In this document: piece after piece, positions 3,039 to 51,300 of the stretch
Layout of the letters: each line of letters begins with the position of its first letter
Numbering within the stretch: the first letter of the stretch is position 1
Translations under genes and position numbers: made by a program
The notes under the pieces: generated by a model
Told to the model about the DNA's origin: nothing
Databases searched by the model: none
The model's input: only the letters and a program-made list of their open reading frames with translations
Origin: a virus
Reading direction: 5' to 3' (one strand)
Virus record (IMG/VR): IMGVR_UViG_3300044818_000015
Coordinates: 1-64,000 of that record
Length of the DNA: 64,000 bases

Positions 3039-3446
3039 GTGGGAAGCATCGCCACCCAACCATTCGCACGAAAAGAGAGAGAAGTCCTGGAGCTGTTGAA
3101 GGCTCGCGTGACGATCAAGAACATCGGCGCGCTACTCGAACTCAGCACCAATACCGTCCGCCAGCGCCTGCGCGTCAGTTGCGAGCTGGCACAGGTCGTC
3201 GATGAGGTCGAGATGCATCTCTTCCTGATCCAGAATCCCGACATTCTCACCAGGGGCGCCACTTGCTTGCCCGGGCTGCACATTCCCATCATGGGAACCC
3301 CCATCGAAGGCGAGGCCGTGCCAGTCAAGCCGTGCGGCTGCGGTAACCCCGAATGTCTGGGGCCCGTGGCCATGCACGTCAAGACGACGAGCCGCGAGGC
3401 GGCTTCGGCCGCCGGCGAACCCCTGCCGCCGGAAGTCTTCAGGTAA
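3039..3446 (+). CDS. LuxR-like HTH DNA-binding protein
   Basis: EREVLELL...TIKNIGALLELSTNTVRQRL HTH pattern; Cys-rich C-terminus. Confidence 0.65.
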   Translation: MGSIATQPFARKEREVLELLKARVTIKNIGALLELSTNTVRQRLRVSCELAQVVDEVEMHLFLIQNPDILTRGATCLPGLHIPIMGTPIEGEAVPVKPCGCGNPECLGPVAMHVKTTSREAASAAGEPLPPEVFR

Positions 3447-3641
3447 AGAGATGCGCCTCGACTGTAAAACCTGCCTGCTTCTCTGGGCGGAGTACGGCGC
3501 GGCGTTGGGCTCCGTTCGCCGGAAGATCCGCGGAAGCGCGGATAAGCTGAAAAAGGCCGAGGCGGCGATCGCCGGCCACGATCTGCAACACCACATCCCG
3601 AGGACCGCCGCGGCTTCGGCCCTGGCGTAAAGCATCGACCA

Positions 3642-4007
3642 ATGGAACGAATGGAACCGCCGCGCATCTTCGTCCAGGACCTGAAGCGGCAGCAGGCTCC
3701 CAACGTAAAGCCGCTACTCGGATCCAAAGTGAAACGTGTCTGGGGAACGCCGGGCGGTACGATGCTGGCCGTGCTCTTAGAGGGCGGCAAAATCCTCATG
3801 GTCGAAACCAACGAGTCCCTGCTCAACGTAACAGTCGGCGACGAAATCCCCGGTATGGACTGGTCGGCGGTCCCCGCTTATCCGGATCCACACGCCCGAT
3901 CGCTGGTCGGCCGCCGGTTCACCGGCTTTGCGGCCAACGCGGTGACATTCGGCAAGGTCCGCGCACAGTTCAACCGCGACAGTATACGCTGGGTTAGGGA
4001 GCCCTGA
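3642..4007 (+). CDS. hypothetical protein
   Basis: 121-aa ORF ending 2 nt before the vWA gene. Confidence 0.7.
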   Translation: MERMEPPRIFVQDLKRQQAPNVKPLLGSKVKRVWGTPGGTMLAVLLEGGKILMVETNESLLNVTVGDEIPGMDWSAVPAYPDPHARSLVGRRFTGFAANAVTFGKVRAQFNRDSIRWVREP

Positions 4008-4009
4008 GC

Positions 4010-4597
4010 ATGTCTGACGTCGCCGCCCCGCTGCAATCGATCATCAAGCGGCTCGCCGGCACGGACATTGTGGGCCCGGCCGCCAAAAGGGCGCAGCGCT
4101 TTACCGATGCGTCCGACGAGCTCGTCGTGCTGGCCGACTGTTCGGGATCTATGCTCGACTTCATCGGCAGCCAGGGCATTTCGAAGTTCGAGCATTTGCA
4201 GATCGCGCTCGAGGACGTGATGCTGGCCTGGCCGCGCATCAAGATCCTGGCCTTCGCATCGACGTTCCGGGAGATCGCCAACGCCAAAGACCTTCCACGC
4301 GCGGGTCTCGGCGGCGGCACCAATCTGGCGGGCGCGATTGAGTACGCCGCGAAGTGGAGGCCGCGCAAGACCATCATCATTTCGGACGGCCTGCCCGATA
4401 GCGAGGCGGAAGCGATCGCCGCGGCCCAAAAGATCACCGGCGCCGTCGACACCATCTATTGCGGACCGGACGCCCATCCCGCGGTAGCGTTCCTGCGCAA
4501 ACTCTCCCGCGAAGCCGCCGGCATCCACTTCACCTGGGAAGGCGGGCGCACCAGCATTGCGCAGACTATCCGCGGTCTGTTGCCGTCGCCGGAGTAA
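4010..4597 (+). CDS. von Willebrand factor A (vWA) domain protein
   Basis: MIDAS DCSGSM, GGGTNL, IIISDGLP. Confidence 0.9.
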   Translation: MSDVAAPLQSIIKRLAGTDIVGPAAKRAQRFTDASDELVVLADCSGSMLDFIGSQGISKFEHLQIALEDVMLAWPRIKILAFASTFREIANAKDLPRAGLGGGTNLAGAIEYAAKWRPRKTIIISDGLPDSEAEAIAAAQKITGAVDTIYCGPDAHPAVAFLRKLSREAAGIHFTWEGGRTSIAQTIRGLLPSPE

Positions 4598-33366: not shown

Positions 33367-36300
33367 TTATTGCCCTGAAAGCCGATTCATCTGCTCGATA
33401 ACTTCCTGTTGCTGATTCAGCGGGAGCTTCGGCCAGGCGGTCCTGATCTTCTTGTTAAGAATGGGAGTGAACAGGATACGTTCCTCGGGCGTGGTAATGT
33501 CCATGATGTCGAGCGCCGACATCATGTCGAGGGACTCGAAGCCCGCGACATTCTTCGGCACCTTGGCGCGCTTGAGGGCTAGCTTCACGTCATTTGGCGA
33601 GATCACGCCCGCGGCAATCTGCTTGCCGATCAGCTCGTTGGCTTCGTCGATCTTGTCGTCGCGCACCAGGCTGGTGATCTGGTTCTTCACCTTCACGCGG
33701 TCGGCATTGGCCGCGCTCGATCGCTGCCGCGCCAGGAACTCCGCATGGTTGAGGGCGTCCCCAGGCCGGCTGAATAACTGCGGCGTTGCCAGATCCACAG
33801 CCATACGCAGCCAGTGATTCGCGGGGTCGTCGCCGTGCGGCATCAGGCCCTTGGTCAGCCCGGTCGCTTCGCCGACGTTCTCGAGGAAGCCGTTCATGGT
33901 GACAAGTGGCGCCAGGGCATGCGCCTTCGCCCAGCCAGCCATTCCCGGCTTCTGCGTTTCTACCGCTTTCATAAGTTGCGGGTTAAACTTGCCGCGATCG
34001 TCGCGCCAGCCGGTGACGTATGGCTCGGTTCCGCTGAGGCCCACCCAGGCCGCACTGAACGGAGGGCCGAGGAGCGGATGCGCCGCAGCGTTAAAGGCGC
34101 CGGCGACGGCCGCGTCCATCAACTGGTCCGTGCTGCCGCCGGCCTTGTAGGCGTCGAAGGCTCCGGAGATGCCGAGAGCGCGCGCGCCGCGCTTCACGAG
34201 CGGCGAGAAGAAGCCGATATCGATGTAGGCGTCTCCATTCGACGGCGGGCCCCACAACTGTTGGGCCAGCCAGGTGGCACGCTGCTTATCGGTCAGACGC
34301 ACGGCCAGGAGCTTCGAGTGCGGATCTTTCCATGGCGGGTCCCCGCGCATCGCTTCGTGCATGGCGATCCACAGGGCGATCAGTCCCACCGCTCCGCCGG
34401 TTATTGCCTGCAGGGCACGCAGGCCTGCGCCGCCCTTGGGCATCGGTCCGCGGCCGGTCCAGGCGTTGACGCCATTCCGCGCCATGGTCGAGCCCGCGGT
34501 GTAGAACGGGCTCCAGCCGCTTTCCTTCGCAGCGCGCTCGATGCTGCCCTGCAGGGCGCGGGTGTAGTTGCCGAGTTGGTTGACCACCAGATACAGGTCT
34601 TTCGTCGTCGCTTGCGGGTACAGTGCTTTAGCGGCGCGATACATCACCAGCCGCGCACGAATGTCGATCCCCTTGGGACCATACAGGAACGGGCCGAAGC
34701 CGAGGCTCGCCTCAACATCCCGCTTCGCTGGTCCCGGCTGCCGTAGAACCATCGCGGCAAAGTCTTCCGCCGTCTCACGCAAAGCCCGCTTAATTTCGCC
34801 GCCGAGGGTTGGCTCGACGTCCGCACCCATTTGCGCGGCGTATTCCCGGCTCTTCTTGAACCAAGACGAGGCCATCGAGCCATATTTCTCTGGCACCACC
34901 CCGAGCTTCGCCATGTCGATGATGTCCTGGACGCTCTCCTCGGTGGTCGGATTGGTGTTGATCAAATGGAAGATGGCCGCCGCCCGCTTGGTGAATGGGT
35001 TGCCGCCTGCGATCTTGCCGGCGAGACTCGTCCCAAGGAACGGGGTATTCGCCACCAGGGTGCCGATAAGGTTCGCCGAGTGGATCACCGCATCGAGCGG
35101 TCCGGCCAGCGTGAACTGAGTGATCTTGCCGATGAGACTCGCGGGGTCCGACAAGTTGAGGTTGTTCTTGTCGAGAATCGGCCGCAGCTCCTCTTCGAGC
35201 CACGCCGCGGTAACCATGTGCTGCGCCGGCACAAATACGGATCCCTGTCCTGGCGTCACAATCTGGCGGTCCGGCTTAACCTCGACCTTCACGGCCTTGT
35301 AATCTTTGCTGCGGATCGCGATCGAGTCCGGCAGGGATTCGCCGCGGCCCAACTTCCGGCCGAGCTTGTTGTCTTCGAGCGCCTGGATCAGCGCCCCCTT
35401 ATTGTTGGCGCGGAACGCCTGGCGCAGCCGGTCGGCCAGTGCCTCCATGCCGGCGTCGTAGAATTCTCCATGGCCGGTGGCGAAATAGTTGGCGATGTTG
35501 GGAGGCTTGCGATACGGGACCGCGCGCCCCCAGCGGCCCTTGGCGTTCGGTTGCTCTTCATCCAGGCGGACCAGCGGGTAATAGGTGTCAAGCGGCCCAA
35601 GGGCGTTTGAAAGCACGCCTTCGTTCTCTTCGTGATTCTCCCGTACCGCATCCTCCACCAGCGTTTTGTAGACCTTCAGGCCGCCGGCGAATCCAGCGTG
35701 TTGGGTGATGTCCTGGTACTCGGTCTCGGGCATCATCCGCGCCACGCGCGCCGCCGCCCGCTCGAAGGTGTCCACCAGAAACGCACGCAGGCCGTCCATG
35801 TCGCCGCGCTCGAGGAGCGCCGCGGCCGTCAGCGCCGGGCTCTGGATCGGCACGCCGATACTCTCCTCATGAATCGCCTGGAGGGCGTGCATGACGCTTG
35901 CGAGGAATGCCGGCAGGTCATCGTTGGTCGATTGCGCCGCGCCTTCGGCCATGTTGTCCCAGCGTCCGCGCAGGCCGCGCAGCCGCGATTCGATCAGCGA
36001 TCGCCGGAAATTGAGCCAGCTCGGCCCGTTCTTCCCTAGTGCCGCTTCGACTCGTGGCGCCGCAGCCCGCATGAGCGCCACAGTTTGCGCGCGCGACGTC
36101 GCGGTCTGTACCGCTGCCGCGTGGGCGGGATGGCTTACCTTTTCAAGCTGGGAGAGGTTGCGGACGAGCTTGTTTTTGAGCGCGCCGGTCTTCGACTGGT
36201 AGCTGGCTGGTTCGTTTAGGGCTTTGCGGCGCCGGGCAAAGGCCGGTCCGTCTTGTAGAAGAAGTGCGGCTTGTCCTCGGGATCCTCCGGCGGCATGATT

Positions 36301-39300
36301 TCCTCCATGGCTTCCGCGAGAGCTTTGGGGCCCTGTCTCGCCGCTGTCAGCCCCTTGCGGTAATTCGCCTTGAGGCGTTCCAGATCTTCGTTCTGTTTCG
36401 GCGTTAATTCCGGCACGTAGCACCGCCTCTTTCATCATGGGAGCAAGGTTTGTGATGGCTTGCTCGACTGCTTTGGCTCCATGCTGCTTGGTGAGCAACG
36501 TGAAGTAGTGCGTCCCTAACTCTACCGCTTGCGGGCGGGTAAGTCCCAGTTCTTCGTACTGGCCGCCCACCAGGTGCGTACCGATTTCGGCGGCGATCTC
36601 GTTTTCGGGGTATCCCTTGAGACGCAGTTGCACCGCTGCGTCTTGCGCGAACGGGTGATCGAGTAATTCCTGCTCGTGCTCGCCGAGGTGCCCCTCTAGC
36701 TGGTCGATACTGAGGTGCCACTTCTCATGGCGCAAGGTGGCCGCGGCGCGCTGCAGGCCCGCGCTTCCGTTGACCAGCAACACGGATTGCTCGTTAGCCC
36801 CTGCTTTTTCGAGAGCGAGCGCCAGCGCCGGATGGGTCGGCATCAGCGCTTTCACCGCCCTGACGACGTGGCGCGGGTGCAGGCGCATGCCATCGAGCGC
36901 CGGATCTCCCCAGACTTGGCCGATCGCGGTTACGTTGGCCTGGTTCGTGATCAGCTTACCGGGCTGTACGGTGATCCGCAGTGCGCCCGGGTCCGAGGTT
37001 TCGCCGTCCGGCGTGCGGGCGAACAGCGGCTGTCCCTGCATCACCGAATCCACCATGGCAGGCGTGATGTCGATCGAGTGCAACGGCTGCAGCGCGCCTG
37101 GATTATCGGTGGCTACCCTCGCGACGAAGGCCTCAGCCTGTGCGCGGGTTTCAAATTCCCTTACGGGTTCGGACAGAGTATCTTGGCTATCCAGAACGGA
37201 GAACATCTGGCCGGCTGCTCCGCCGTCCTGCTCGTCGATAAATAGGTCGCCGGCGATTGACGGTTTATTTATCTGCGTCGTCCCTACCTTCGCGTCCCAT
37301 TTTTTCCCGTACTTCTTGGCGTAGTCGACCAGTATCTTGTCGTAGAAGCCCTTCATCCCCTCGCCGCCGACTTTCAGGTCCAGGCCGGTGAAGGTTCTGG
37401 CGGCAGGGTCGCCAAAGTCCGACTTTTCACCCTCGCCCGCTACGATCCTTTGCGCCATCTCCTTGCCGACGATATCTTCGAGCCCTTCCGCCGTGACAGG
37501 TCCAGTGCGGCCGGTGTCGTAAATTGTCTCTCCGCCCTTGGCATCGACTGTAAGATCAAACGTCCCTCCTTTGGCTGGTTTTGCCCAAATGGATTCAAGT
37601 TGCTGGCTCAGGTCGTACCGGTCCGCATGCGTCTCGCCGGTGTCCCAGGCCAGCCTGTCGTAGCCGTTTTCCGCCGCATAGCGCAGCATCCGCTTGAAGG
37701 CGAGCTCGTGCCAGGTCTTGGCGAATGGTGCGGGAGGGACGCCGCTATCATTCTTGTGCACGGTGGACAGGGTGTTCGCCTTATCGATCCACTCCTCGCC
37801 GAAGTGCTCGCGGAGAGCTTCGAGCCGTTTCGCCTTACTCGCCTGCGCGGCTTTACTTGCCTGTGCGTTGGTGTCGCCCGGCCTTTCGAAAAGCCATCCG
37901 AAAGTGTAAGGGGATAGGCCGAGGTCAACGCTGTTGAGATACGCCTCTGCTTGATTGCGCAGCGCGTCCCACTGGCCTCCCTGGTAGCCCTTCTTCTTTC
38001 CTTCCTGGTGCCAGTCGCTCTGAAGTTCGTAGACGTGCAGGATCTTCTCAGGTGGGGTGTAAGGCGTTCCGTCGGCGCTGGTCCAGCGATCGCCGAAACG
38101 GACGTGCGCGAGGACGTTGGGCTCGCTCCAGTGGGAGGAGCGGTAAGTGCCCGCGGTCTGCCGGGTACGCTCCATCCCGTTGGCGTCGGTGTAAGTTTCG
38201 CTCTTCGCGCCGGGCAGTGTCAGTAGCAGCTCGCGGTAGTTCTCGCCGCCCGGGGTGACGTAGCCGCCGTACTTGGCTACAGATTCCCTGGCGGGGCCCT
38301 GGTCAAGGTCAATCTCGATGCGCTCTGCTTCGACGGCATCCTTGGCCGCAGCAATAGAGTCAAACTCGCCGAGCGAGCCATGGGTGCTCGTAAGGCTGAA
38401 GCCGTCGTATCCTTTATTGGGCGTGATAGTGTAGCGGCCTTCCGGCGTGTCGGCGATCCAGTCGGGAAGCTCTTCCTTCCACGCCGTAGGCTCGAGCTCG
38501 GCGCCTCCGCCCTTGACCACTTCCTCGACCTGCACCTCGTTCGCCTTCACGAACGCGAGCACCTGCTCCCGGGTCACCGGCCCCTTGCGCTCTTCGAGCC
38601 AGGTATCGAGTCCGGTCCATTTCAGCTCATCGGCCTTCACTCCACTCTGCGGGTTGCGCAGCATGGCCAGCAGTTGACCTGGCACGGCCGGTCCTTTCAT
38701 CTTGGCCGCGATCGCGCGCTCGAGCTGGGAATAGAAGCCCGGGGTTTTGCGGGAGTACTGCGGTGTGTCCTTGAAACGCTCGGCCTGCTCTGCGTGAAAG
38801 GCCTTCCATGCCGCCGCGTCCGCCTCATAGAATGCCTGAGCGGCTGCGGTGGAATCGTCGTCAAAGGGGCGGTCCGCTTGACTCTTCTGGAATGCCTGGA
38901 AGGCGCGGTCTCTCTCCTTCACGAACTCGTCGACGCGCCGGTGCTGCGCGTTGTTAAACTCCGCCCGGCTCGCTATTACCTTTTCGGCACGTTGCTGGCC
39001 GGTCTGTGCCGCCGCCGGCGAAAGCTCGGCCAGCGATTGCTCCAGCCGTTTGACGGCCGCAGCAGCCGCGGCGCGCTCGCCCGGTATGGTGGCGCGCTCC
39101 ATGAGTGCCTTCGCCGAGCGTAATTGATCGGTTAGCCTGGCGCGGGGGTCCTGGAGCACGCGCGAGTACTGCGGCTTGTCCGCTGCCTTCGGCTGGCGCG
39201 AGAAGAGCGGCGCCTGCTCCGGCTCCTGGCCCTGGTCGCCGAACAGGCTATCGCTGCCGCGGTCTTTCGCCGGCTTCAGCTTGGCGGGCCTGGCCGCCAT

Positions 39301-42300
39301 ACCGGATTTGACCTGCGCCGTCAGTTGCGCGCCGAGTAGCCGGTCCGCGGCCGATTGCGTCTCTGCTTGCGAGCTCGCTTCCGCCACGCGGTCCACCAGC
39401 GAGGCCTGGCCGGCGATTTCGTGCGCCTTCGCCCTGGCACGCTCCAAGGTCGGATAGATCGTAACCGTGGGCAGGGTCTGCTCGGCATCGAGGTCGCGCA
39501 GCGTGACCGCGTATCCGTTCGGATGCCTGGTGACCACGGACTCGAGGCCGTCTTCGTGGTTGGTATAGCGCGCCAACACTTCGGGCGCCTGGCGCGAGAA
39601 CTGCGGCGCATCGGGCGGCGCCTCGTCCGGCTTCACCGGATAGGCTTCGAGAATGCGATCGAGGATCGCCCCTGTCGTGTTGGGCCCGTCCCCGTCGTAC
39701 TTCCTGGGGATGTAATACACCGGCGTGATGCCCTTTTCGGAGAGAGCGCCAAGGGTCAACAGATTGCGGGCGACGTCCTGGTTTGGCGGGAATAGCTGAA
39801 TTACCTGGATCCGTCCAATGATCCCGCGGCGTACCTGGGTGTTGCCTTCGAGGGTGTAAGTCAGGTTGTTGCGCAGCACGTCGTCATGGAGCTGCTTGGC
39901 GTCGACGGTGCTCTTGCCGCCCGAAATGCGATCGAGCAAGGCGCGAATCCGCGATTCGGGAATGTCGATACCGACCACGCGCTCGGCAGTCTTCGAGTCC
40001 GCGGTGGTGTAGATGCTGTTGCGGATGAAGGCTGCATCGCGGATCGGATTCCAGAAGCGCATCACTTCGCCGCCAATCAGGTGGTGATGGGTGGTGGTGT
40101 GAGTCGGCGCCGCGTCGTAGCGCTCCTTCCAAATATCCTTGGCCCATTGCTGGGGATCCTTGGCGATGGCTTCCGCCGCGGCCAGCGGCGCCCGCTGCGC
40201 CTCCACTTCCTTGGTGCTGGCGTCAACCCGCTTGCGCTGCCAGCTATCCGCCGGCATCTCGTACGCCTTAGCCTTGGCAAGGGCAGTCTTCGCCCGTTCC
40301 AGTGCTTCCTCCCGCCGGGTGCGCGCGAAGTACTCGAAGTCCGGCGCCGCCGCCTCATCCGCGCGGCCTTGCGCATAGCTTAGATCGGATTCCGCGTCGC
40401 GCACCCTCGAGGTGCGGTTGTTGTCTTCGTCCCGCTTCAGTTGAGCCTGGTCGCGCTCGAGGTCCCGCTCCGCGCCCTTCAGCGCGTCCTGTGCCTTGCT
40501 CAATTCCTCCTTCGCCCAGGTGTCCACTTCCTTGAGGCCCTTGCCGCGCAGCTCCGCCTGCGTGACCTTGAGCCAGCGTCCGCGTTCCGGCTTGGCGGTG
40601 TAAGACGACGGTTCGACGTTTCCGTCCGCGTGCACGGTCGGCGGGGCGTCGATCACCAGATAGAGCACGCCCTTCTCGTTGCGCGCGATCGCCGCATGCC
40701 GCTTCTCGTGCTGCAGGAGGCGCTCGTCCAACTCCTCGGGCGACACGCGCTCCGTTTTGTTCTTGGCGTCAACGGGATAGTAGTAAGTCTCCGCGCCGGT
40801 CTTCGGATCTTTGGCGAGTAATCGCTGTTCCTTTACTTCGATCTCATCGCCCGGCAGGGTTTTGACGCCGGTATCGAGCGTGCCCGCGGCGATCGCCTGC
40901 TCAACGGCCGCATTAAAGATGTTGAAGAAATAGCGATACGTCGCGTTTTGAATGTCCGGATCGAGCGCCATCAGCCGGTTCAGCAGCTTGGTGACGTTCG
41001 TCATATCCGCGGGCGGGATTTCGGGCCCGCTCGAGCCGAGCTTGATTACTCTGAGATCGGTGAGAACCTGGAGGCCGCTGAGCCCGGTGCCGGGTACGGG
41101 TTGGTTGCGGAGGAGTTGGGTATAGAAGGAGTTGGTCGCGGCGCGGCCCTGCTCCGTCTCAATGTTGGCGTTCTCGCCCATGGCGGAGCCCGCCGCGGCG
41201 TTCTTCTGGCCTTTGGTCAACGCGCCGAGCGAACCCAGGCGCCGCTGAATGGTCGAAACGAACCGTTGCTCGCCCGCCAGGTCGGAAATCAGGAAGACGT
41301 ACTCGGGCGGCTGCTTCTGGTTGGTGCGGTGGGTGCGGCCCAGCATCTGCTGCGCCTTGTCCGCGGACCAGCCCGTCTGCAGGGTGATGTGATAGCGCTT
41401 TTGCTGGTTGGCGACGTCGTTGCCGGCGTGCAGCGAGATTCCGGTACCGCCCGCCGAGGAGAGCACCGCTACCCGCTTCTTGCCGCCTTGGAAGGCGCGC
41501 ATCTCGAAGAGGTTGATTTCTTTCTTCGAGGCCTTGGGGTCGCCGCGTGGTACGAACTTGCCGATGGAGCGGTCATACTTCTCTTTGCGTCCTGTGATCT
41601 CCGCGACGTGCTTGTCTCCGCCCAGGCTGTTGATCAGGATGTCGAGCGGATTCTCTGGCATGTGCAGATCGCGGTTGAGCTTCGCAATCAGCGCATCCCG
41701 GGCTTCGACGGCCGCCGGATTGACAACCGGGATCTTACGGCCCTGCTCATCGTTCCGGTAAACCGGCACTTTGATGGGGTTGCCGCTCGAGTCTACGTCG
41801 TCGGCATACTGCTGGGTCGGGTAACTCGTGAGGACCATGTTGACCAGGGCTTCCTTCGGCCCGAAGTCATACTCCGGTAAATCGTCCGGATCCTCGTCCT
41901 CGTCGCGCTGCTTGGCTTTCTCGCGATTCTGCGCCGCCTCGTTGGTGTTCACCAGCGTGATCACTACCGACTTACCCTCGGCCAGCGCCTTATTGGCGAG
42001 CTCTACCGCGGTGGGCGTCTTGAGCGCGGTAATCAGTAGACCGAAGAAGCGCTGCTGTGCGCCGCCGAACGCGGACATGAAGTTGCCGCGCTGCTGCCGG
42101 CCGCCATTGGTCGTATTGGCGATGGTGGCTTCGGCGTGCTGAATGACGGAGGCCCAGGCCTGCGTTGCGGTGCGGTACAGGTCTTTCTGTTCCTTGGATA
42201 GCTTGTGGGTCTCTGTCTCGTAAGTGACGCCCTTGTAACTCAGCGTCCGCGCCAGATACTTGCCCTGCGCCTTGAGTGAGCGGGCGATCAGCTCCATCGC

Positions 42301-45300
42301 GGCAATGCCGCCTGGCCCGATCTGCGACTGGAACTCGCCGAACCCTTGCGGGAAGGCTGTCCCTGGCCCCCACTGGCCCAGGCGATCGAGATAGCCGAGG
42401 TTGATTACATCGGTCGCGGCCGTCGCCGAGAGAGAGACCGTGCGCAGCTTCGGCATGCGCGCCAGCAACTCCTTGGCCGCTACGCCCCTCTGGCTTTCCG
42501 AGCCGCCTTGGGCGGCGACGGCCGATTTGAGATTGTGCGACTCGTCCCATAGGATGTACGCGCCTTCGCCGTCGTCATCGCCGCGTAGATACGCCTCCAT
42601 CTGGTCGATGCGGCGCTGCCCGGTCTTATTCTTGCCGGTGAGCAGGGCATAGGTCGAGAACAATACGCCGTCGTGCTCGATCTTCTTGCCGTAGCCGAAC
42701 TTACTGAACGCCTGCACGGCGGGGTTCTCGCCCATCACGTTCTTGCCGTCCTCGATGGAGATTCCGCGCGTCAAGGCGTCCGCGCCGATGTTGCGGAAGT
42801 CGTGAATGGCCGCGTCCATCAGGTCCCACTTCTCGGAGACCCAGATCAGGCGCTTCCGTCCCTGGAGATAGTTATCCCAGAGGATGCCGGCGGAAATGCG
42901 GCCTTTGCCCACACCGGTTCCGTCGCCGATCAGCGCACTGGCATAGTGCCCGCCGGGCAGGACGATGGAATTCTGCTGGCCCGCGAACGCGATCGCTTCC
43001 ATCTGCACGGCGGAGAGGCGGCCGTTTTCAAGGACCGAAGGCGGCAGGGAGGGCTTGTAGGAGATGGGTGGCGGCTTTACGGTCGCCATCGTGCGGGTTT
43101 CGACGATATCGCCGGGATGCGCCGGTCCGGCGATCGAGGGGCGGTACGGAACGAACGGGCCGTTGTCGGCTTCGGCTTCCGGTTGGGGGACTTCTTCGAG
43201 GTTCGGGCCTAGTGTGAGAGTAGACGGTCGTTCGTCATTTGAGTCCGGAGGACGGCTTTCAGGACGTTCAGCGGCGGGAGTTTCGGGATGTCCCGCAGAC
43301 TCAGTTCCGGGTTGGACTCCACCAGGTAGTTTATCGCCAGCACCGGCTTGAACTCCCGCATGCTGACTACCAGATCCTCCAGGCTTTCCGGCAGGTTTGC
43401 CCGCTCGGCCAGTTCCTCGGCCGCCCGGGTGTACTCCTGGCGGCACTGCATCATCATTGCCAGGATCTGCGCCCAGGCCAGTTCCGGACTTACCGGGCCG
43501 AGGGCCATTACCGCCTCGCGGGACAGGCTCGATTTGCGGGCGATCGGCTGCGACATCTCTAAGAAGATTGTACGCCTCCTCAAGCGTCTCAACATTTCCC
43601 TGGAGCACGGAGTCCCAGGTTTTCACCGCGCCGGGCTTCACCTGCGAGGGCGTGGCCCCGTTCTTGTCGATGACAATGATCCGCGTCGAGAACGTGGTGC
43701 CGTACTTCTGGTATTCCTTGCCGGCGATCCGGATGTTGGCGCGCACGTTGTACTGCGCCGCAATCCGCTCGAACCATTTGCCCGAGGGTCCGGTGGTGAG
43801 GTTGGCGCCGCCGTTGGTGTCGTCGGCGCGTCCGCCGCCCAGGATCACCACCAGCCGGCCGTTCGGGAGGAGACGCTGGAGCGCCTGGTCTACGTGGTTC
43901 AGCCCATAGATCGCGCGGTTTGTGGCTTCGTGCGATTTGATGGCGCTCGCCGAGAACGGCGGATTCATCAGCACCACGGTCGGACGGATGGCCGGATCGA
44001 GCAGCGCGTTGATCAGCTCGCCGTCGTGCGCGGTCGGCTTATTGAAGCCGATCAGCTCCATCATTTGGGCGCGGCGCTCGGAGACCTCGTTGACGTGGAC
44101 TTCGGCGCCAATGGCCTTCGGCCAGATAGCAATCCCGCCATTGCCGGCGGAGGGTTCGAGTACGACGTCAGTAGGAAGGATGCCGCCAACTCGGGCCACT
44201 ACATAGGATTCGGTTGGGGGCGTCGAGAATTGCTGGTTGGCCAGTTGTTCATCGGTCCGGACGCTCTGCGTGGTGACGCGCCCCAGCAGCTCGCGCAGAT
44301 CTTTCAACGCGGCGATGGGGTCCATTTCCATCAGCGCCTTGCCGCGTTCGAGCAGCAGCTTGTTGATGCCGGCTTCCATGGCATCGAAGGCGTCTTTCGG
44401 GGTCCAGTCGCCCGAGGCGCGGGATCCGCCCAGGTGGAGCTCCGCCAGCTTATTGAACTCGACGACGTTGCCGAGCGAGCCGCCGGATTTCAGCTTGTCG
44501 TAGACGGCATCGATGAGCGCTTGCGCGGGATGCGCCGCGGGCTCAGGCTCAGGCGCGCTCGTCGACACGCCATTAATCTTGCGGATATCCGCCGGTTTGA
44601 TGTAGACGGAGCGGGCCGGCTTGTCGGTGGCCGGGATGCGTACTTCAATCTCGCCGCTACTGCCGTAGATCGCGACGACATTACCCTTGTGGATGCCCTG
44701 CGGGGAATCGAAGACCACAACATCGCCCTTGTTGACGACGGGCATCGGCTTGTCGGCTTGTACTGGTTGCTGATCGCCGGACGCGGGTTTCTCGGCCGGG
44801 GGCTTCATGGGCTCCACGGTCTTGCCGTTAATCTTCGCCACGGCGACGGCGAGACGGTGCACCTGGCGCAGCGCGTCTTCCGGAGTCTGGCCGGTTTTCT
44901 TGGCGTACCACTGGATCACCGGGCCGACGTCCTCGTTCATGCGGGCGAGCCAGGCGGCTTCGTCGGTCACGCCATCGAGCATGTGCTCGGCGCCGACCGT
45001 GGCCAGATCGATGCGCGCCTGCTTGATACGCGGATCGGGCGGGGTGGTTCCGTTGGCGCCTTCGGTGCGCGAGTATTGCGGCTTGTCGGGCTTAGAATTG
45101 ACTTCGCCATCTTCGGGCGCGATATTGGAATCAGGTGCACCACTGTTCGGCGAAGGAGTTTCGCCGCTCCCTTTGCGGGGGGTTCCGGGAACACTCGTAG
45201 TCCTCCCGGAAGGCAGAGGAACTTGACCGCTGGTTCCCGGGGGAGTCGGTCCGGGACCTTTCGGGGCTTCACCAACGCGGATTCTGGTGGTGAGGGCCGG

Positions 45301-48300
45301 CGGTTCATCTTCATATACGGTAAGCAGCCATTTCTTCGCTTTCCCGTCATAGTCCAGGCGCACTGCGGCTTTGTGCCGATCGTCAAATAGCCGAATACGA
45401 TTCGCTCCTGAACGCTTTTCATCCACCTGCATCTTCGGAAAGAACTCCGGGAGCTCGGCAAGAATTGCGGTGCGGCCCTTAGCCACCAGCTTGGCGACGC
45501 CCTCTCCGTCCTCGAAGTCCTTTTCTGGCGTGCCCGACTTTCCCCAGATGATGTCCACGTCCCCGAGGCGGGGGTCCGGGTGATATAGTGCCGCTACCGC
45601 GTCACCGGTCTCATGTTCGAGGAGCCACGAGATCGCGCCTTTGGCGTCGTGGTGGAACTGCCGGAGAATCGGCCCGTGCGATCCCATTTCTGGCTGATCT
45701 GTCCTCCGCGAGTACTGTGGTTTGTCGTCTTCCTCCAGCAGCGCCTTCATGCGATCGCGCGCTTCCTTGCCGGCATCGGCGAGCGGATTGGCTTTGGCGG
45801 GCGGCGCGGCCTTCTTCGGAGCGGACGGGTGATTTGGCGGGAATTTGGATTTCGGGGCGGGGGTTGCCGTGCTTGCGTCAACGGTGACGACCTTGCCGCT
45901 GTCTCTCACGGCCAGGGTGAAGGCGGGCTCCTGGTCGCCGTGGTTGTCGATGCGCAATACCTCGCCAGAATGCGCGGTACCGCCAGGCCCGTTGAAAGTC
46001 ACCCTTCCGCCGATAGGAAACCGCTTTTCCATGTCGGCCGTAGTGGCGCGAGCCGTGCCGCGCTTCGCCGCAATTGCGGCAGCCGCGGCGTCGACGGCCT
46101 CTTGCTCTTCGTCGGAGATCTCGGGCTCGGCGGGCTTTCCGGAAGCGAGCGCCTTGAGATCGGAGATCTGGCCCCGGAGAAACTGCTTATTCTCCTCACC
46201 AGCCGCCGCGGCGTCTTCCAGAATGGATTCGGCTATGGCGATGTCACCCCGGATCTCGGCGCGGGCATCCGCCCGGGCTCCAGCCGAATCGGAGCTGAGT
46301 GTCAACTCCCACTGCTTTTGTTTCTCGAAGAGGCTGTCGATGATATTGGCGAGCGCTAATTCGGCCTCGTTTTTAGCCCTGTGTTCCTTTTGAAGCTGGT
46401 CTTCGAGATTGGCCGTGTGCTTCTTGCTGATAGGGATCTTCTCGGCGGTGGTCAGGTCTTCCGTCACTGGCGCGGGAGCCACCGGTCCGGTCTTCGGCGC
46501 TCCGAACGCCTTGGCGAATTCCTCGACCGGATCCGGTTGCTCGAAGAACGATTCCGCGGTGGAGCGTTCCACATAGGCGCGGACCATCTTGGCGATCGCG
46601 GTGCCGGAATCCTTGCGCAGGATGCCGGCCAGGTGCTCCGCCCGCGGCGTCGTCTCCGGCCGCTGGCTGCCGAACATCTCGGGCTGGTCCTTGGCAAGCT
46701 GGCTGTTGGCGTCGAATCCGTGCGCCTTCTTGTAGTCGGCCTCGTATTCGATCAGCGCCGTGGCCTGGCGGACGTCGGGTGAAAGCGTCCAATCCGGACG
46801 CGCTTCGATGATGCGCAATAGGGGGGCAATGCGCTCCAGTTTGTTGCGCAGCGCGGGGGCGATGCGCTTAAACTGGTCGCTGTCTTCGAACAGGCTGCCC
46901 ATCACCAGCTTGGCTACGCGCTCCTTGGCGGCCTTGGTGACCGCGCCGCTGGTCGAATCGAAAAGGACGGGCCGCTCCTCTTCGGTAAAAATGCCTTCGC
47001 TGATGAGCCGGTTGACGATGCTCGGGCCCATCTTCGAGTTCATGATGTCGTTGAGCGAATCATCGGGACCGAAGGATTCGAGGACGGAGGCGAGATACTT
47101 CGCCAACTCCGGGGTGATGCTGCGGGCGTCTTCCGTTGCCTGTTCGGCAGTCGAGAGCTTTGCCGTGGGTACTTTGTTGAGGTCGGCGATTGCGCGTTGC
47201 TTGTCGATAGTGTCGTCGGCGATAACGCGGAACAGGCCCGGCTTTTTGAATCCGTCTATCCCGGCGGGATCGATACCGAACATGGGGGCGCGCTTCCTGA
47301 GCCGCTCCTGGTACCGCTTGGCAAGTTCAGGAATCTTGTAGGCGCGCTTCAGGGTGATGAGCCGGTTGTTGCCACCGAGGGCGTTGCCTACGTCCTCAAT
47401 GACGGAGGGGCCGTTGATCGCGTCGGGGTTGTCATTGATGAGATAAGCCTCATCGAAGAAGGCGGGCAGGCTGTTTTGGATCGGACGGGCCCGGTTCAGC
47501 TCGTCGCTGTAATCTCGGCCGTTAACGTATGGATAGTCGGGGTCTTCTTCGAAAGTAAAAGGATCGTGGCTGGGGCGAACGTCGTCTATTTCTCGGATGG
47601 AGTAATAGGCTTCGTAGGGGAGGGCTCTTCCCTTGACACGAATTTGCGTCCGTTCGCCTTTAATCTCTTTTCGGCCTGTTGGAGGCGGTTCAGGAAGCGA
47701 TTCTCCTTCGTCTCCACGCTGTCCTCGGGCTGAACGTGTTTCATCGGATGGCTCCTCTACTATAGGCGTTTTGTCGGCTGGGGGTTTTTCTTGTATTGAA
47801 CCTTCCTCAGATGTGGCGGTCGGTCCAGCGGCTTCGGTGGTTGTGGCAGGCCGGATGCGCTCCCAGTAAACGGTGGCTTCAACGTCGTCATCGTCGAATT
47901 TGACGCGAATGCCGTCCCGCGTCTTCGTGTTGGCAAAGCGTTTGAGGTCGACCATTTTGACCACTGCCGGGCGGTCGGGCTTCTCGCCGGGGATGCTTAC
48001 CAGGACGTGCTGGCCCACCGCGAAATCGTGGATGCCGGCGGGCTTCTTCAGATCCGGATAGTCGGCCAACACTTCCGGCGGTATGGTCTCGCCAACGTTC
48101 ATTGCCTTCCGGATCGCGGCCTCATGGCGCCGGGAGAGTTCCGTTGTCGGGACGCGGGCGGCGCCGTAGCGCTCCGGATCGCGCAATTCTCCTTGAATCA
48201 TCTGCGCAAAATCGTTGCCGGGGTTGTTGTAGTCGCCGTAGGTATCAGCGAGCGCGTTATGGCGCGCAGTCGTATCGCGACTGTGGTTCAGGAGGTCGGC

Positions 48301-51300
48301 CAGTTCCCGGTAGGGCAACTCCCAGGCGTGTTTGCCCTCGGCGGCGGGCTTCTTCTGGCCGCCCCACTCGCGGCCCTTGGCGGATGGCTCAAATTCGGGG
48401 ATGCCGCCCAGCTCGGCGATGACCGCGGCGTGGTCGATCTTCTTCGCGGTGGCGCGCTTCCGGAATTCGGCGAGCTTCGCCTGCGCTTCCTCGATTCGCT
48501 TGTCGCGATCGCTGATGTTCTCCCACGTCTCCCATTCGTAGCGGCCCTGGCCGGCGAATTGGGCATCGGCCTCGCGGGCGTGCTTCAGGGAGTCCGCAAT
48601 TTTCTGGAGAGCGTTGAGCGAGAGCTTGACCGATTGTTTGACGCGCTCGGGAACTTCTTCGGGCGCGTGCTGTGGCGCTTCGGCGGGAGGCGCATCGCCG
48701 GACGCGGGCGCGGGGGTTCCGCGCTTCTTCGCGATCGCCGCGGCTGCCGCATCGATGGCTTCCTGTTCCTCTTCGGAAACTCCTGCCTCGACGGGCTTCT
48801 TGTCTGCCAGCGGGTGTTGCGGGGGAAGCGTCTGCTTCTTCGGCGGGGCGGGTGGCTTTGGCTTTACGGCGGCCTTCCAGAGGTGATCGTGCGATGGCAC
48901 CTGAATCACGCCGGGCTTGGCGTCCTTCGCGATGCCTTTGATGCTGTCTCGGACCGCCACACCACCGGTGCGGATCTCCGCTTCCTTCAGCCCGGTGTGC
49001 TGTGCGACGAAATCGACGTACTTCTGATCGTGCTTCGAGGGAGTCTTCTGAGCTGCAATGTACGCGGCCTTGTCCAGGTCGTTCTCGAATTCCAGGGTGA
49101 ACTGTTTCGGCCCGTAGCTGTAGCGCGGGGCGGCTCCCTGGAGAGCATGCGGGAGGATGGCGGGAGTTGCAGATTGTGGCTGTTCAGCCACATTACTTAC
49201 TTGACTAAGCTCTGGTTTTTCTTCGGGCGCCGGCGTCTCGTTTTGGAGGGGAGGCACATCGCCGGACGACGGCTGCGCTTCCGCCGCGGGCTTCCCTGTT
49301 AGCGGGATTTCGACTATCTTGCCGTCTTTTCCGCTGAACGTGAGCGAATCGAGGGTGATCGTTCGTCCGGTGACGTTGCGAATGATGCTCCCGTCGTATA
49401 ACTCGCGGTGTGTCCCTGGCTTCAGGTAGGCGATGGTGACGTGTGGCTTATAAGTGGGGAATGTGTTGCCGGTGTGGTCGACGGCATCGCCGACCAGCTT
49501 ATTCAGCTCGTGCAGCTCGGGCGAGTCTACGTCTACCTTGAGGACGTCCGGTCCGCCGTCCGTACCCTTAAATATGGAGGTCTTGCCGAAGGTGACGGTG
49601 ATCGGTCCTTGCCCTTTCAGAATTTCCTGAATCGGAGTGGGGTCCGCGCTGGGGTTGCCGTATTTGACGGTGACGTGTATTTCCTTCTCGCGGCCGTCGC
49701 TGGCGTCGCCTCCGGTTTTCTCCCCTGCTTCAACGTGTAAATGCTCATCGGGGATGGCGGCGCCGAACTTGCGCACTGCATCCGCGATATCCTCCGGCAT
49801 GTTGACCTGGGTAGAAGAGTAGTCGTGAGTTTGAGGGGCAGTATCATCATTTGATACCGGCGCTGCTTTCTCTTCGGGCGCGGGCTTCGGCTTGCCGGCC
49901 GCGGGCCGCGCCATGGCGGCGTCCACGTCGGCACGCAGGGCATTGTCGAGCGATTCGTATGGTTTACCGTGCCGCGCCATCGCAACGCGATCGCGGGCGA
50001 TGCTCTCCGGCGTTGCTTCGGGCGCGGCAGCCGCGGGTTTCGGCGGCACGTCGTCGGCACCGTCATCCGGCTTCGGCGGTTTCGGTGGCACGTCATCCGG
50101 CTTCGGTGGTTTCGGCGGAACATCATCGGGCTTTGGCGGTTTCGGCGGAACGTCCCTCTTGCCGGTCCGTTGGAATTCCTTCTCGAGAATGGAATACGCC
50201 GCTTGGTTGCGCCGGAAGATAGCCGGGTCGACGCCGGGGTTTCTGTCCGGATGGGACGCCATCGCGGCCTTGCGGTACGCGGCGCGCACCTCTTCGAACG
50301 TCGCGTTTCGGTCGACGCCTAGAATATCGCGGGCTTGGTCCTGGGAAAACTCCGGAGATCCGCGGGGCCGTCTCTGTCGCCGGGCGTCATCCTCCTCACG
50401 CTGGCGCTTTTGCCGGGCTTCTGATTCCTCACGTTCGCGCTTGAGTTTGGCTTCATATTCCGCTCGCCTTCGCGCGGAGGCATCTGCGCTTTGGTCCGGA
50501 GGTGGCTTCTTGGTGCCATCGCGTGCGGCCGTTGTCTCCTCATACATCTGCCACATGCGTTCGTCGGTGTACTGGTGGCCGCTGGCGGGGTCTTCCCACA
50601 TCCCTTGCGCGTTTTTCTTATAGAGGTTGTCGCGCCATGTCTCGTAGGGGCCGGGCTTGTAGCCGTCGTCGGGTGGGGGCTTCTTGGGTCCGCCGCCGCC
50701 TTCCCGCTTAAACTTCTCAAAGAGGGACTCTTCGTCAAATTCATTGCCGTTAGTTCGGTCCTTTGACTGCCAGCGATCTTCGGTACCGTGTTGCTCGTAA
50801 AACTTGTCTCGCCACGCATTAAATTCTGGGTCGGGGGCGCCGCCCCTTTGCTCGCTGCGTCCATGGGTGCCAAAGCGTTGGTTATACTCAGCGTGCAGCG
50901 CTTCATCGGTGAAGGTGTTGCCCGCAGTGTCTTCCCAAGTGCCTTGCGCCGTCTGCTTGTAGTTCTTATTGCGCCAGTCTGAGTAGAAGTTTCTAAATCG
51001 GTTGGGGCCCGTGCCGTGGGAGCCAGGGTCGCCGCTATCCGGTGGGGGCTCGTCAACGATTTTCTCTGCTTCGCCGGGCTTGAACTTGAAATTGAAGATG
51101 TCGCCGAGTTTCTTCTCGATGGCGGTAAGCACCTTTTCGCGGTATTCCGGACCGGCCGCGTGGACAAAGGGCAACAGGGTCATGGCGGCATGGCCCACCA
51201 GGTCGCCGGCCGTGGCTGGCGACGGGTCTTGCTTGAAGCGCTCATACACTTCAGGTAGGTCTTTCGCCATAGTGGTGGCGAAATATGCATCGACGCCCGC

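What the first reader, a model, noticed from the sequence alone, without database searches (positions are those of the whole stretch)
33766..45720. Repeated P-Q-[YF]-S-R motifs delimit modules of the giant protein, which has its own HExxH peptidase: possible self-processing polyprotein
Seen: PQYSR (about 45706, 45067, 39160, 38749), PQFSR (39592), PLFSR (39196), PLFAR (37015), PAFAR (36232), QLFSR (33766). They fall between modules: RNase | MTase+helicase | small domain | DUF2786-like helix pair | ELQSDW module | peptidase | C-terminal part. An HEKWH motif with a downstream Glu lies at about 36715-36729. Established: zincin MPTase domains occur in phage polyvalent proteins and have been proposed to release domains. 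Inference: these motifs are the cleavage sites that free individual effectors after ejection; alternatively they are recombination junctions for domain swapping.
Basis: partly seen in the sequence, partly recalled or inferred. Interest (0 to 1): 0.8.

Follow-up and report, generated by a model that had tools for sequence, protein, structure and literature searches.

The report
Junction peptide in giant phage protein
A 6,541-residue virion protein of an uncultured 90-kb phage is a string of enzyme modules joined by one short repeated peptide (Pro-x-Tyr/Phe-Ser/Ala-Arg), which gives exact places to test whether such giant phage proteins are cut into separate enzymes; no cutting has been shown.

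Summary
All nine motifs and HEKWH lie at the stated coordinates in one ORF (33367-52992, minus strand, 6541 aa). PQ[YF]SR occurs 5 times against 0.003 expected, and 0 of 2000 shuffles had one.

The motifs sit at module seams. Among 137 related giant proteins, such sites fall on homology breakpoints about twice as often as random positions, and control motifs do not. Alignment ends pile up exactly on the Arg/Lys. Cassettes have moved between lineages with the motif at both edges.

Conservation is at the protein level. Its flavour is lineage-specific: S here, E in P0006, A in P0122. The basic residue follows the shared module mainly when another module comes next.

Cleavage is unproven. The HExxH...E domain is a rare family with no Pfam, NCBIfam, PDB or profile match. 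Motif enrichment does not depend on an HExxH in the same protein.

Verdict: a real junction peptide and a plausible processing site. This scan noted similar junction peptides, with other sequences, in other phage genomes. I found no paper describing the motif.

The parts
33367..52992 (-). Giant ORF, 6541 aa (P0001): a polyvalent virion or ejection-type protein
   Evidence: It lies just downstream of the head-tail adaptor, Hc3 hub and DNA-ejection protein genes. The portal, scaffold and major head protein genes lie further along on the same strand.
45706..45720 (-). PQYSR, aa 2425-2429; left edge of the PBECR-like cassette
   Evidence: The P0006 alignment starts here, on its PDYQR.
45082..45705 (-). 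PBECR1-like (RNase-type) module, aa 2430-2637
   Evidence: Pfam PBECR1 at E 5.7e-4 and 20.8 bits, below the cut-off; phrog_13543.
45067..45081 (-). PQYSR, aa 2638-2642; right edge of the PBECR-like cassette and start of the next module
   Evidence: It aligns to PDYER-5222, PDYER-1380 and PQYER-3386 of P0006.
40861..44304 (-). DNA methylase-like region (aa 2897-3127) plus Strawberry-notch-type helicase (aa 3291-4044)
   Evidence: PHROG 9133 and 6263; Pfam AAA_34 at E 6.9e-84 and Helicase_C_4 at E 1.2e-77.
39592..39606 (-). PQFSR, aa 4463-4467; end of the methylase-helicase block
   Evidence: The P0005 alignment, 2771-4470, ends on its PQFMR.
39196..39210 (-). PLFSR, aa 4595-4599; end of an unassigned 127-aa segment
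   Evidence: The segment has no Pfam hit and no homologue in the set.
39160..39174 (-). PQYSR, aa 4607-4611; second copy, 7 residues after PLFSR
38749..38763 (-). PQYSR, aa 4744-4748; just before the shared module (FYSxL start)
   Evidence: 115 HSP starts lie within -28 to +9 residues of it.
37030..38748 (-). Shared ~575-aa 'ELQSDW' module, aa 4749-5321; unknown function
   Evidence: Present in all 120 giant homologues, by construction of the search. Alignment A1 has invariant E, Q and S in ELQSDW. No Pfam, NCBIfam or PDB match. 2285 proteins of stand-alone size also match.
37015..37029 (-). PLFAR, aa 5322-5326; conserved C-terminal edge of the shared module (GQPLF + A-R)
   Evidence: HSP ends cluster between -2 and +3 residues of the Arg.
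36247..37014 (-). HExxH...E domain, aa 5327-5582; a putative zincin-type peptidase
   Evidence: Alignment A2 has invariant H5422, E5423, H5426 and E5469. The family is rare: 33 representatives at E<=1e-3 among 1.84 billion proteins.
36715..36729 (-). HEKWH, aa 5422-5426
36586..36588 (-). Glu5469, candidate third metal ligand (in the AAEIGTH helix)
   Evidence: Invariant column E160 of A2; residue checked.
36232..36246 (-). PAFAR, aa 5583-5587; after the Gly/Arg-rich tail of the HExxH domain
   Evidence: An equivalent P-x-[FY]-x-R follows the domain in P0004, P0005, P0010, P0012, P0122, P0123 and P0126.
33766..33780 (-). QLFSR (as P-Q-L-F-S-R), aa 6405-6409
   Evidence: It lies 8 residues before a ~125-aa C-terminal module shared with P0004 and P0010. 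Those two have AYITK and AYVTR at the same place.
33382..33744 (-). Conserved C-terminal module, aa 6417-6537
   Evidence: BLAST to P0004 and P0010.

Best explanation
The P-x-[YF]-[SA]-R pentapeptides are a junction signal that is read at the protein level. One sits at the C-terminal edge of each module in the C-terminal two-thirds of a virion-packaged, ejected polyvalent protein. Most likely they are proteolytic processing sites. The most likely protease is the protein's own HExxH...E domain (aa 5327-5582), which would cut the chain in the capsid or after ejection and so release the RNase-like, methylase-helicase, ELQSDW and C-terminal modules.

Shown: the motif, its seam position, its protein-level conservation, its lineage-specific flavour, and its dependence on a following module.

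Inferred: that it is cut, where within the peptide it is cut, and by what.
For: 1. The motif is non-random and found only in this ORF.

2. It sits at seams.
- Alignments to 120 homologues begin at PQYSR-4744 and end at the Arg of PLFAR-5326.
- Across 137 giant relatives, 108 of 233 P.[FY].R sites lie on homology breakpoints, against 41.2 +/- 5.7 expected.
- Leaving out the shared module's borders, it is 62 of 187 against 29.4 +/- 4.9. In both cases 0 of 1000 randomisations reached the observed value.
- Of ten control tests (five control motifs, each with and without the shared module's borders), nine were flat; [FY]SE over all sites was mildly enriched (34 against 24.2, 18 of 1000) and flat once those borders were left out.
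- HSP ends peak exactly on the R/K: 742 at +2 against a background of about 20-60. The peak persists without the shared module.

3. Unrelated modules end in the same peptide, so it is not part of one fold.

4. Cassettes move with the motif at both edges.
- PQYSR-[PBECR-like]-PQYSR in P0001 aligns end to end with PDYQR-[...]-PDYER in P0006, which sits in a different place in that protein.
- The single PQFMR of P0005 aligns to both PQFSR-4463 and PQYSR-4744. These two bracket a 277-aa insertion in P0001.

5. The peptide, not the DNA, is conserved. The four PQYSR copies differ at synonymous sites.

6. The flavour is lineage-specific, as for sites read by a co-evolving partner.
- P0001 uses S, P0006 uses P[DQ]YER and PLFER, P0122 uses PLFAR three times, and P0123 uses P.FER.
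- Within-protein agreement at the fourth position is 57 of 259 pairs against 29.7 +/- 5.2 (0 of 5000 shuffles).
- Without P0001 it is 41 of 231 against 24.7 +/- 4.6 (5 of 5000).

7. The basic residue depends on a following module.
- After the shared module's terminal aromatic, R/K stands at +2 in 67 of 124 ends in giant proteins and in 3 of 93 ends in stand-alone-size proteins.
- Counting clusters at 50% identity, it is 59 of 108 against 2 of 19, p = 3e-4.

8. The HExxH...E residues are invariant in 10 of 10 aligned sequences. In close homologues the domain is bracketed by GQPLF-x-R upstream and P-x-[FY]-x-R downstream.

9. No head protease is evident. Peptidase_S78 is absent, and the head module is P22-like with a scaffolding protein.

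10. Iyer et al. 2017 predicted MPTase self-processing of such proteins (PMC5512222, passages seen).
Against: - No cleavage data exist.
- The HExxH domain matches no Pfam family, including MPTase-PolyVal PF18818. It also matches no NCBIfam family and no PDB sequence.
- hhalign against six other HExxH clusters from these proteins gave probabilities of 2-11%. 'Peptidase' therefore rests on four residues.
- Motif enrichment does not track an HExxH in the same chain. The [FY]SR ratio is 1.84 in 93 proteins with HExxH and 2.15 in 28 without.
- After removing the shared module's borders, the ratios are 1.2-2.0 in all four HExxH clusters and 1.5 in the 31 proteins with none.
- The N-terminal 2424 aa hold DnaJ, 2H and ParB domains but no motif.
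- The [SA][RK] contrast between fused and stand-alone forms weakens to p = 0.057 when counted by cluster.
- Only 36 of 509 sharp alignment ends carry the motif.
- According to Iyer et al., N4 vRNAP, ArdC and TraC1 carry MPTase domains yet travel uncut (passage).
- The related proteins are not independent samples, so the permutation counts overstate significance.
Confidence: 0.4

Rival explanations
1. The motifs are cleavage sites, but the protease is not the built-in HExxH domain. It could be a host protease met after ejection, or another phage-encoded activity such as the unassigned ELQSDW module.
For: - Motif enrichment is equal in relatives with no HExxH.
- Dibasic contexts are frequent after the motif: PQYSRR and PAFARRRK here, and PLFARRR and PLFSRKK in P0122.
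- The ELQSDW module is flanked on both sides by the best-conserved copies of the motif. It has invariant E, Q, S, H and D residues.
Against: - Lineage-specific flavours fit a phage-encoded reader better than a conserved host enzyme.
- No protease family was detected anywhere in the protein or beside it.
- The ELQSDW module has no match to any known fold by sequence.
Confidence: 0.12
2. The motif is an uncut short linear motif. It would be a docking or handling tag at each seam, for example for packing the 700-kDa chain in the capsid, for passage through the tail channel, or for host chaperones recruited by the protein's own J-domain.
For: - It shows protein-level conservation, lineage flavour and seam position, as for the main reading.
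- It does not depend on an HExxH in the same chain.
- The same chain carries a DnaJ domain, E 4.1e-10.
- Precedents exist of MPTase-bearing proteins delivered uncut (Iyer et al. 2017, passage).
Against: - No partner is known.
- The N-terminal 2424 aa would need the same handling but lack the motif.
- An aromatic plus a basic residue in an exposed linker, needed only when another module follows, is what a cut site looks like. It would also fit a spacer.
Confidence: 0.25
3. The motif is an evolutionary seam. Modules are shuffled by recombination at, or together with, a conserved linker, and the peptide is inherited with the cassettes without being read by anything.
For: - A cassette moved with the motif at both edges, and a 277-aa insertion is bracketed by two motif copies.
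- Tandem shared modules are joined by a single motif in P0002 and P0003.
- Iyer et al. raise cassette-like recombination for some polyvalent loci (passage).
Against: - DNA identity is at most about 15 nt, with synonymous differences between copies.
- The same cassette carries the resident flavour in each lineage: S in P0001, E or Q in P0006.
- Within-protein homogeneity exceeds shuffles.
- Both the aromatic and the basic residue are kept across very different hosts and base compositions.
Confidence: 0.18
4. The motifs are a chance recurrence, or a by-product of low-complexity linkers.
For: Linkers here are rich in P, Q, A, K and D.
Against: 0 of 2000 shuffles had a single PQ[YF]SR. Control motifs are not enriched at breakpoints, apart from a mild [FY]SE signal that vanished once the shared module's borders were left out.
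Confidence: 0.01

Closest known systems
Phage-type polyvalent proteins with zincin-like MPTase domains (Iyer, Burroughs, Anand, de Souza, Aravind 2017, PMC5512222; abstract and passages seen)
   Same: - One giant polypeptide holds many unrelated enzyme domains, in a virion context.
- Domains typical of the class are present: ddrB-ParB, PBECR1-like, methylase plus SF2 helicase, and 2H phosphoesterase.
- An HExxH domain is present, and self-processing was proposed for the class.
   Different: - In the passages found, that paper names no cleavage or junction motif. The words 'linker', 'boundar' and 'interdomain' each occur 0 times.
- The HExxH domain here does not match Pfam MPTase-PolyVal.
- I could not see the paper's supplementary alignments, which may bear on this.
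Phage P1 DdrB (as described in Iyer et al. 2017, passage)
   Same: It is a packaged anti-restriction protein with a ParB-type domain and a C-terminal MPTase. It is reported to be processed to about 76 kDa before packaging.
   Different: It is one cut in a much smaller protein. The site is not given in the passage seen, and no repeated junction peptide is described.
Stx phage phi24B gp47 (2,811 aa in the preprint), the giant ejection protein (bioRxiv 10.64898/2026.04.10.717836, passages seen); I take it to be the 2,807-aa gene at HM208303 49148-57571 read, an equation made by size only
   Same: - gp47 was detected in virions, is absent from the cryo-EM map, and was proposed to be an ejection protein with LPD domains and a metallopeptidase.
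- The HM208303 gene has [FY]S[RK] 5 times against 1.3 expected. Three are YSR in linker-like contexts, one of them ending a module whose relatives in my set end in ...LFSR.
   Different: - It does not contain the ELQSDW module at tblastn sensitivity.
- Its HExxH domains are of other types (HEWFH, HEIIH).
- The preprint passages seen do not say whether gp47 is cut.
Cleavage sites of viral polyproteins (recalled knowledge, no call)
   Same: A short peptide is repeated at every domain seam. It is similar within one virus, differs between lineages, and is read by a protease in the same chain.
   Different: Here cleavage is unproven, the 'protease' is unverified, and the protein is a packaged cargo rather than the translation product of a whole genome.
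Junction motifs of polymorphic toxins, such as VENN in CdiA and DPxGL in Rhs (recalled knowledge, no call)
   Same: A conserved short peptide demarcates swappable modules. It has been linked both to recombination and, for Rhs, to self-cleavage.
   Different: Those mark a single constant-to-variable border. Here the same peptide recurs at many seams of one chain.
ArdC of plasmid R388 (PMC7213743; search listing and start of abstract only)
   Same: It is an anti-restriction protein with a metalloprotease domain, delivered or acting early in the recipient cell.
   Different: It is a two-domain protein with no junction-peptide array.

Membership tests
Phage-type polyvalent protein (Iyer et al. 2017) | Many functionally unrelated domains in one polypeptide | tested here: met
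   DnaJ, 2H/Acb1-like, ddrB-ParB, AAA_34 and Helicase_C_4; methylase PHROGs; PBECR1-like, below the cut-off.
Phage-type polyvalent protein (Iyer et al. 2017) | Encoded in a phage, in a virion or early-delivery context | tested here: met
   The record is a complete virus genome with direct terminal repeats. The gene follows the adaptor, Hc3 hub and DNA-ejection protein genes and shares a strand with portal, scaffold and major head genes. Packaging itself was not tested.
Zincin-like MPTase | HExxH plus a downstream Glu on a later helix | tested here: met
   H5422, E5423, H5426 and E5469 are invariant in 10 of 10 sequences of A2.
Zincin-like MPTase | Sequence or profile match to a described MPTase or zincin family | tested here: not met
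   No Pfam hit at E<=5 to any zincin. PF18818 is absent from the genome at E<=10. No NCBIfam hit and no PDB hit. hhalign to six other HExxH clusters gave 2-11% probability.
Zincin-like MPTase | Zincin fold (three-stranded sheet, HExxH helix, Glu helix) and peptidase activity | not testable with these tools
Self-processing polyprotein | A repeated site at the domain seams | tested here: met
Self-processing polyprotein | Site sequence co-varies with the protease or lineage | tested here: inconclusive
   Flavours are lineage-specific. However, enrichment is independent of HExxH presence or cluster. The two lineages with a non-basic residue after HE (HEAMH, HEWWH) use an acidic fourth position; that is n = 2 and noticed after the fact.
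Self-processing polyprotein | The chain is actually cut at the sites | not testable with these tools
   The phage is uncultured and has no proteomic data.

The most novel reading that the evidence does not exclude
P-x-[FY]-[SA]-[RK], with lineage-tuned variants such as P-x-Y-E-R, is the long-sought cleavage code of a large class of phage polyvalent proteins. A built-in zincin of a previously undescribed family cuts the ejected 700-kDa chain at each seam and frees a set of anti-defence enzymes. New effector cassettes can be plugged in anywhere, provided they bring the tag.
Probability: 0.3. Interest if true: 0.8.

Novelty: new variant of a known kind. Interest (0 to 1): 0.6.

Why it matters
Polyvalent proteins are widespread in phages and conjugative elements. 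Since 2017 they have been predicted, but never shown, to be cut into separate effectors.

A defined junction peptide turns that idea into an experiment at exact residues: nine sites here, and matching sites in hundreds of relatives. One relative belongs to a cultivable E. coli phage whose giant protein has already been detected in virions.

It also gives a practical rule for finding module borders in these very large, mostly unannotated proteins. And it suggests how new effector cassettes are added.

If the motif proves not to be cut, it is still an unexplained, selected linear motif tied to the multi-module state.

Tried and rejected
I therefore have no fold, no pLDDT at the motifs and no docking.

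2. Naming the HExxH domain. Pfam, NCBIfam, a PDB profile search, PF18818 in the phage and in five genomes holding relatives, and hhalign against other HExxH clusters were all negative.

3. Naming the ELQSDW module. Pfam, NCBIfam and PDB were negative. One plasmid annotation calls a matching protein 'LPD23 domain-containing', but no Pfam family matched this module at E<=1.

4. Link between the motif and an HExxH in the same chain. None was found. The distance from HExxH to the nearest motif shows only a weak peak at 100-150 aa on both sides.

5. Gene splits at motifs. Of 103 ORF ends (ORFs of at least 400 aa) in the fetched loci, only 1 had a motif in its last 30 residues. P0138 ends exactly in ...GYSR and P0128 ends in ...QFARRSD.

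6. Disorder estimate. FoldIndex% of the protein unfolded, so it is too crude. The upstream flanks of 5 of 9 sites rank in the 77th-97th percentile on a disorder scale, and the other four rank in the 21st-47th. I give this little weight.

7. Unbiased logo of sharp alignment ends. It was swamped by breakpoints inside the shared module. 36 of 509 ends carry the motif, against 1.8% of random positions.

8. Close relatives for site-by-site conservation. None was found. There was no megablast hit in phages, tblastn identities were at most 35.6%, and best identities elsewhere were about 41-43%.

10. Literature. The motif strings gave no relevant paper. Searches on MPTase, polyvalent proteins and cleavage and on polyvalent virion proteomics found no report of a junction motif or of mapped cuts.

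Full report
**What is there.** The window is the first 64 kb of a complete 90,044-bp virus record with direct terminal repeats, at about 62% G+C. The finding lies in one ORF, 33367-52992 on the minus strand, 6541 aa, kept as P0001.

The gene follows the genes for a head-tail adaptor, an Hc3-type tail hub and a DNA-ejection protein. It shares a strand with the portal, scaffolding and major head protein genes. That is the position of ejection proteins in P22-like podophages, a placement I make from recalled knowledge. No HK97-type head protease was found.

Recognisable domains are:
- DnaJ (aa 889-942), a 2H/Acb1-like phosphoesterase (aa 1101-1195) and ddrB-ParB (aa 1793-1923).
- A PBECR1-like segment (aa 2430-2637), below the Pfam cut-off.
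- A methylase-like region (aa 2897-3127).
- A Strawberry-notch-type helicase (aa 3291-4044).

**The observation.** Every motif is at the stated place, and so is HEKWH.
- PQ[YF]SR is expected 0.003 times and occurs 5 times. The looser P[QLA][YF][SA]R is expected 0.065 times and occurs 8 times.
- None of 2000 shuffles had a single PQ[YF]SR.
- In six frames of the whole genome, P[QL][YF]SR occurs only in this ORF (6 of 6).
- All 7 [YF]SR tripeptides of the protein are motif sites.
- All nine sites lie in the last 4117 residues, and the first 2424 have none. The chance of that is 0.016.

**Seam position in this protein.** BLAST against 120 giant homologues shows one shared module at aa 4745-5326. 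HSP starts pile up on PQYSR-4744, and HSP ends fall within a few residues of the Arg of PLFAR-5326.

For the other seven sites taken alone the endpoint excess is not significant, 12 against 7.7 expected, because few homologues cover them. Pairwise maps still place alignment edges on several of them:
- The PBECR-like cassette aligns from PQYSR-2425 to PQYSR-2638 with PDYQR-5064 to PDYER-5222 of P0006. There it sits next to the shared module rather than next to the methylase.
- The P0005 alignment of the methylase-helicase block ends at PQFSR-4463, and the next alignment restarts at PQYSR-4744. Both fall on the single PQFMR of P0005. P0001 therefore has a 277-aa insertion bracketed by two motif copies.
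- QLFSR-6405 lies 8 residues before a C-terminal ~125-aa module shared with P0004 and P0010. Those two have AYITK and AYVTR there.

**Seam position across the family.** I ran an all-against-all BLAST of 137 giant proteins.
- 108 of 233 P.[FY].R sites lie on homology breakpoints, against 41.2 +/- 5.7 expected.
- Leaving out the shared module's borders, it is 62 of 187 against 29.4 +/- 4.9. In both cases 0 of 1000 randomisations reached the observed value.
- [FY]SR, [FY]S[RK] and [LMQ][FY]S behave alike.
- The controls P.[LI].R, [LI]SR, [FY]TR and RS[FY] are flat. [FY]SE was mildly enriched over all sites (34 against 24.2, 18 of 1000) and flat once the shared module's borders were left out.
- HSP ends peak exactly on the R/K, 742 at +2 against about 20-60 elsewhere. 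HSP starts form a broad peak from -10 to +11. Both features remain without the shared module.
- Several unrelated module types end in aromatic-Ser-(Arg)...GQPLFSR...NPDIR[FY]S[RN] and ...TRExxxGxx[LF][FY]SR.
- Caveat: the proteins are related, so these counts overstate independence. An unbiased list of sharp alignment ends is dominated by breakpoints inside the shared module, and only 36 of 509 carry the motif, against 1.8% of random positions.

**Peptide or DNA.** The four PQYSR copies use CCA/CCG, CAG/CAA, TCG/TCC and CGG/CGC, so they differ at synonymous sites. The signal is therefore in the peptide. DNA identity never exceeds about 15 nt.

**Lineage flavour.** The sites by protein are:
- P0001: PQYSR four times, plus PQFSR, PLFSR, PLFAR and PAFAR.
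- P0006: PDYER twice, plus PQYER, PDYQR and PLFER.
- P0122: PLFAR three times, plus PLFSR.
- P0123: PQFER and PAFER.
- P0005: PQFMR, PLFAR and PQFAR.

Within-protein agreement at the fourth position is 57 of 259 pairs against 29.7 +/- 5.2 in shuffles (0 of 5000). Without P0001 it is 41 of 231 against 24.7 +/- 4.6 (5 of 5000). The same cassette wears the resident flavour in each lineage. That fits a co-evolving reader better than a passive scar.

**Dependence on a following module.** The shared module also exists in proteins of 320-1021 aa. 2285 of them scored E <= 0.001 among 8000 candidates, and I examined the best 120.
- These keep ...GxP[LM]F. They continue with a hydrophobic Ala/Gly-rich tail of about 15-30 residues rather than Ser/Ala-Arg.
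- [SA][RK] follows the aromatic in 43 of 124 module ends of giant proteins and in 2 of 93 of the short ones. R/K at +2 occurs in 67 of 124 against 3 of 93.
- Counted by clusters at 50% identity, the first contrast is marginal: 37 of 108 against 2 of 19, p = 0.057. The second holds: 59 of 108 against 2 of 19, p = 3e-4.
- Upstream of the module start, a motif occurs within 25 aa in 25 of 111 giant forms and 5 of 87 short forms.

So the aromatic belongs to the module, and the basic residue goes with the fused state.

**The HExxH domain.** Residues 5327-5582 belong to a rare family. There are 33 representatives at E <= 1e-3, and 5 at E <= 1e-10, among 1.84 billion proteins, mostly giant ones. Seven of the 120 homologues have it.
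- In a 10-sequence alignment, H5422, E5423, H5426 and E5469 are invariant.
- In close homologues the domain is preceded by GQPLF-x-R. After a Gly/Arg-rich tail it is followed by P-x-[FY]-x-R in P0004, P0005, P0010, P0012, P0122, P0123 and P0126; P0006 has PTYES there.
- It matches no Pfam, NCBIfam or PDB entry. hhalign against six other HExxH clusters from these proteins gave 2-11% probability.
- Calling it a peptidase is therefore an inference from four residues.

**Evidence against a strict link to a peptidase in the same chain.** HExxH occurs in 93 of 121 giant proteins, 124 copies against 10.5 expected. Yet [FY]SR is enriched 1.84-fold in proteins with HExxH and 2.15-fold in those without. 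After removing the shared module's borders, enrichment is 1.2-2.0-fold in each of four unrelated HExxH clusters, and 1.5-fold in the 31 proteins with none. Some of those proteins may be truncated, or served by a separate peptidase gene, but I could not check this.

**Reach beyond this family.** The 2807-aa giant gene in the Stx phage phi24B record (HM208303 49148-57571) has [FY]S[RK] 5 times against 1.3 expected, including three YSR in linker-like contexts. By size I take it to be gp47 of the preprint, given there as 2,811 aa. I found no match to the ELQSDW module in that phage at tblastn sensitivity. A 2026 preprint detected gp47 in virions and proposes that it is an ejection protein. The passages I saw do not say whether it is cut.

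**Earlier notes of this scan.** Earlier notes describe analogous junction peptides with other sequences (D-I-R-K-S-x-D-R, I/L-R-K-S-x-x-R, Q-F-x-P, F-M-P, F-K-P) in other phage genomes. They are unchecked leads, not support. The D-I-R-[FY]-S variant that I saw resembles two of them.

**Literature.** Iyer et al. 2017 proposed that MPTases process polyvalent proteins. They also note that N4 vRNAP, ArdC and TraC1 travel uncut (passages). I found no junction motif in the passages searched. No paper holds the motif strings in a relevant sense, and two further searches found no mapped cuts. Supplements were closed.

**Reading.** A short peptide is shared by unrelated modules and placed exactly at their C-terminal edges. 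It is conserved as a peptide, tuned by lineage, and needed mainly when another module follows. That makes it a functional linear motif. A processing site is the simplest function and fits the built-in HExxH...E domain and the lack of a head protease. I put this at 0.40 for the built-in domain, plus 0.12 for another protease. An uncut handling tag gets 0.25 and a pure recombination seam 0.18.

If a zincin does the cutting, recalled knowledge of thermolysin-type specificity suggests a cut just before the Phe/Tyr. A cut after the Arg is equally open, and nothing here decides between them.

Noticed in passing
window 52414-52956 (aa 13-193 of the giant protein): D-G-L-D-[DH]-L-F occurs three times in the first 200 residues, at aa 13, 162 and 187. 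Each copy follows a Pro/Ala-rich stretch. This is a different repeated short motif, in the part of the protein that has no P-x-[YF]-[SA]-R.
   Followed up: no
window 48730-48771 and 46069-46110 (aa 1408-1421 and 2295-2308): There are two near-identical copies of [VI]-S-[ED]-E-E-Q-E-A-[IV]-D-A-A-A-A-A-I-A-[KA]-K-R-G-T, 887 residues apart.
   Followed up: no
window 50167-50328 (aa 889-942): A DnaJ (J) domain, E 4.1e-10, sits inside a protein at the ejection-protein locus. It could recruit host DnaK to pull in or refold the ejected chain. This is an idea only.
   Followed up: no
window about 49980-50130 (just after the J domain): A Pro/Lys-rich repeat, D-V-P-P-K-P-P-K-P-D-D: DVPPK and VPPKP occur 4 times each.
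   Followed up: no
window 37030-38748 (aa 4749-5321) and proteins P0153-P0272: The ELQSDW module is very widespread as a protein of 320-1021 aa: 2285 hits at E<=0.001 among 8000 candidates. There it ends in GxPLF followed by a hydrophobic Ala/Gly-rich tail of about 15-30 residues and a charged end. It has invariant E, Q, S, Y and D residues and no known fold by sequence.
   Followed up: partly
L043 29149-37572 (HM208303 49148-57571): The giant gene in the phi24B record (2,807 aa; I take it to be the preprint's gp47, given there as 2,811 aa) has three YSR in linker-like contexts and two HExxH (HEWFH, HEIIH). As a cultivable phage it could serve to test junction cutting.
   Followed up: partly
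proteins P0138 and P0128: Two short proteins with the same HExxH-type domain end at or next to the motif...GYSR as the last residues, and ...QFARRSD.
   Followed up: no
window 49408-49692 (aa 1101-1195): The 2H phosphoesterase segment also hits the anti-CBASS Acb1 family, at E 8.1e-5 and 22.8 bits, below the 27-bit cut-off. Its homologues in P0005, P0006, P0010 and P0012 are 44-51% identical.
   Followed up: no
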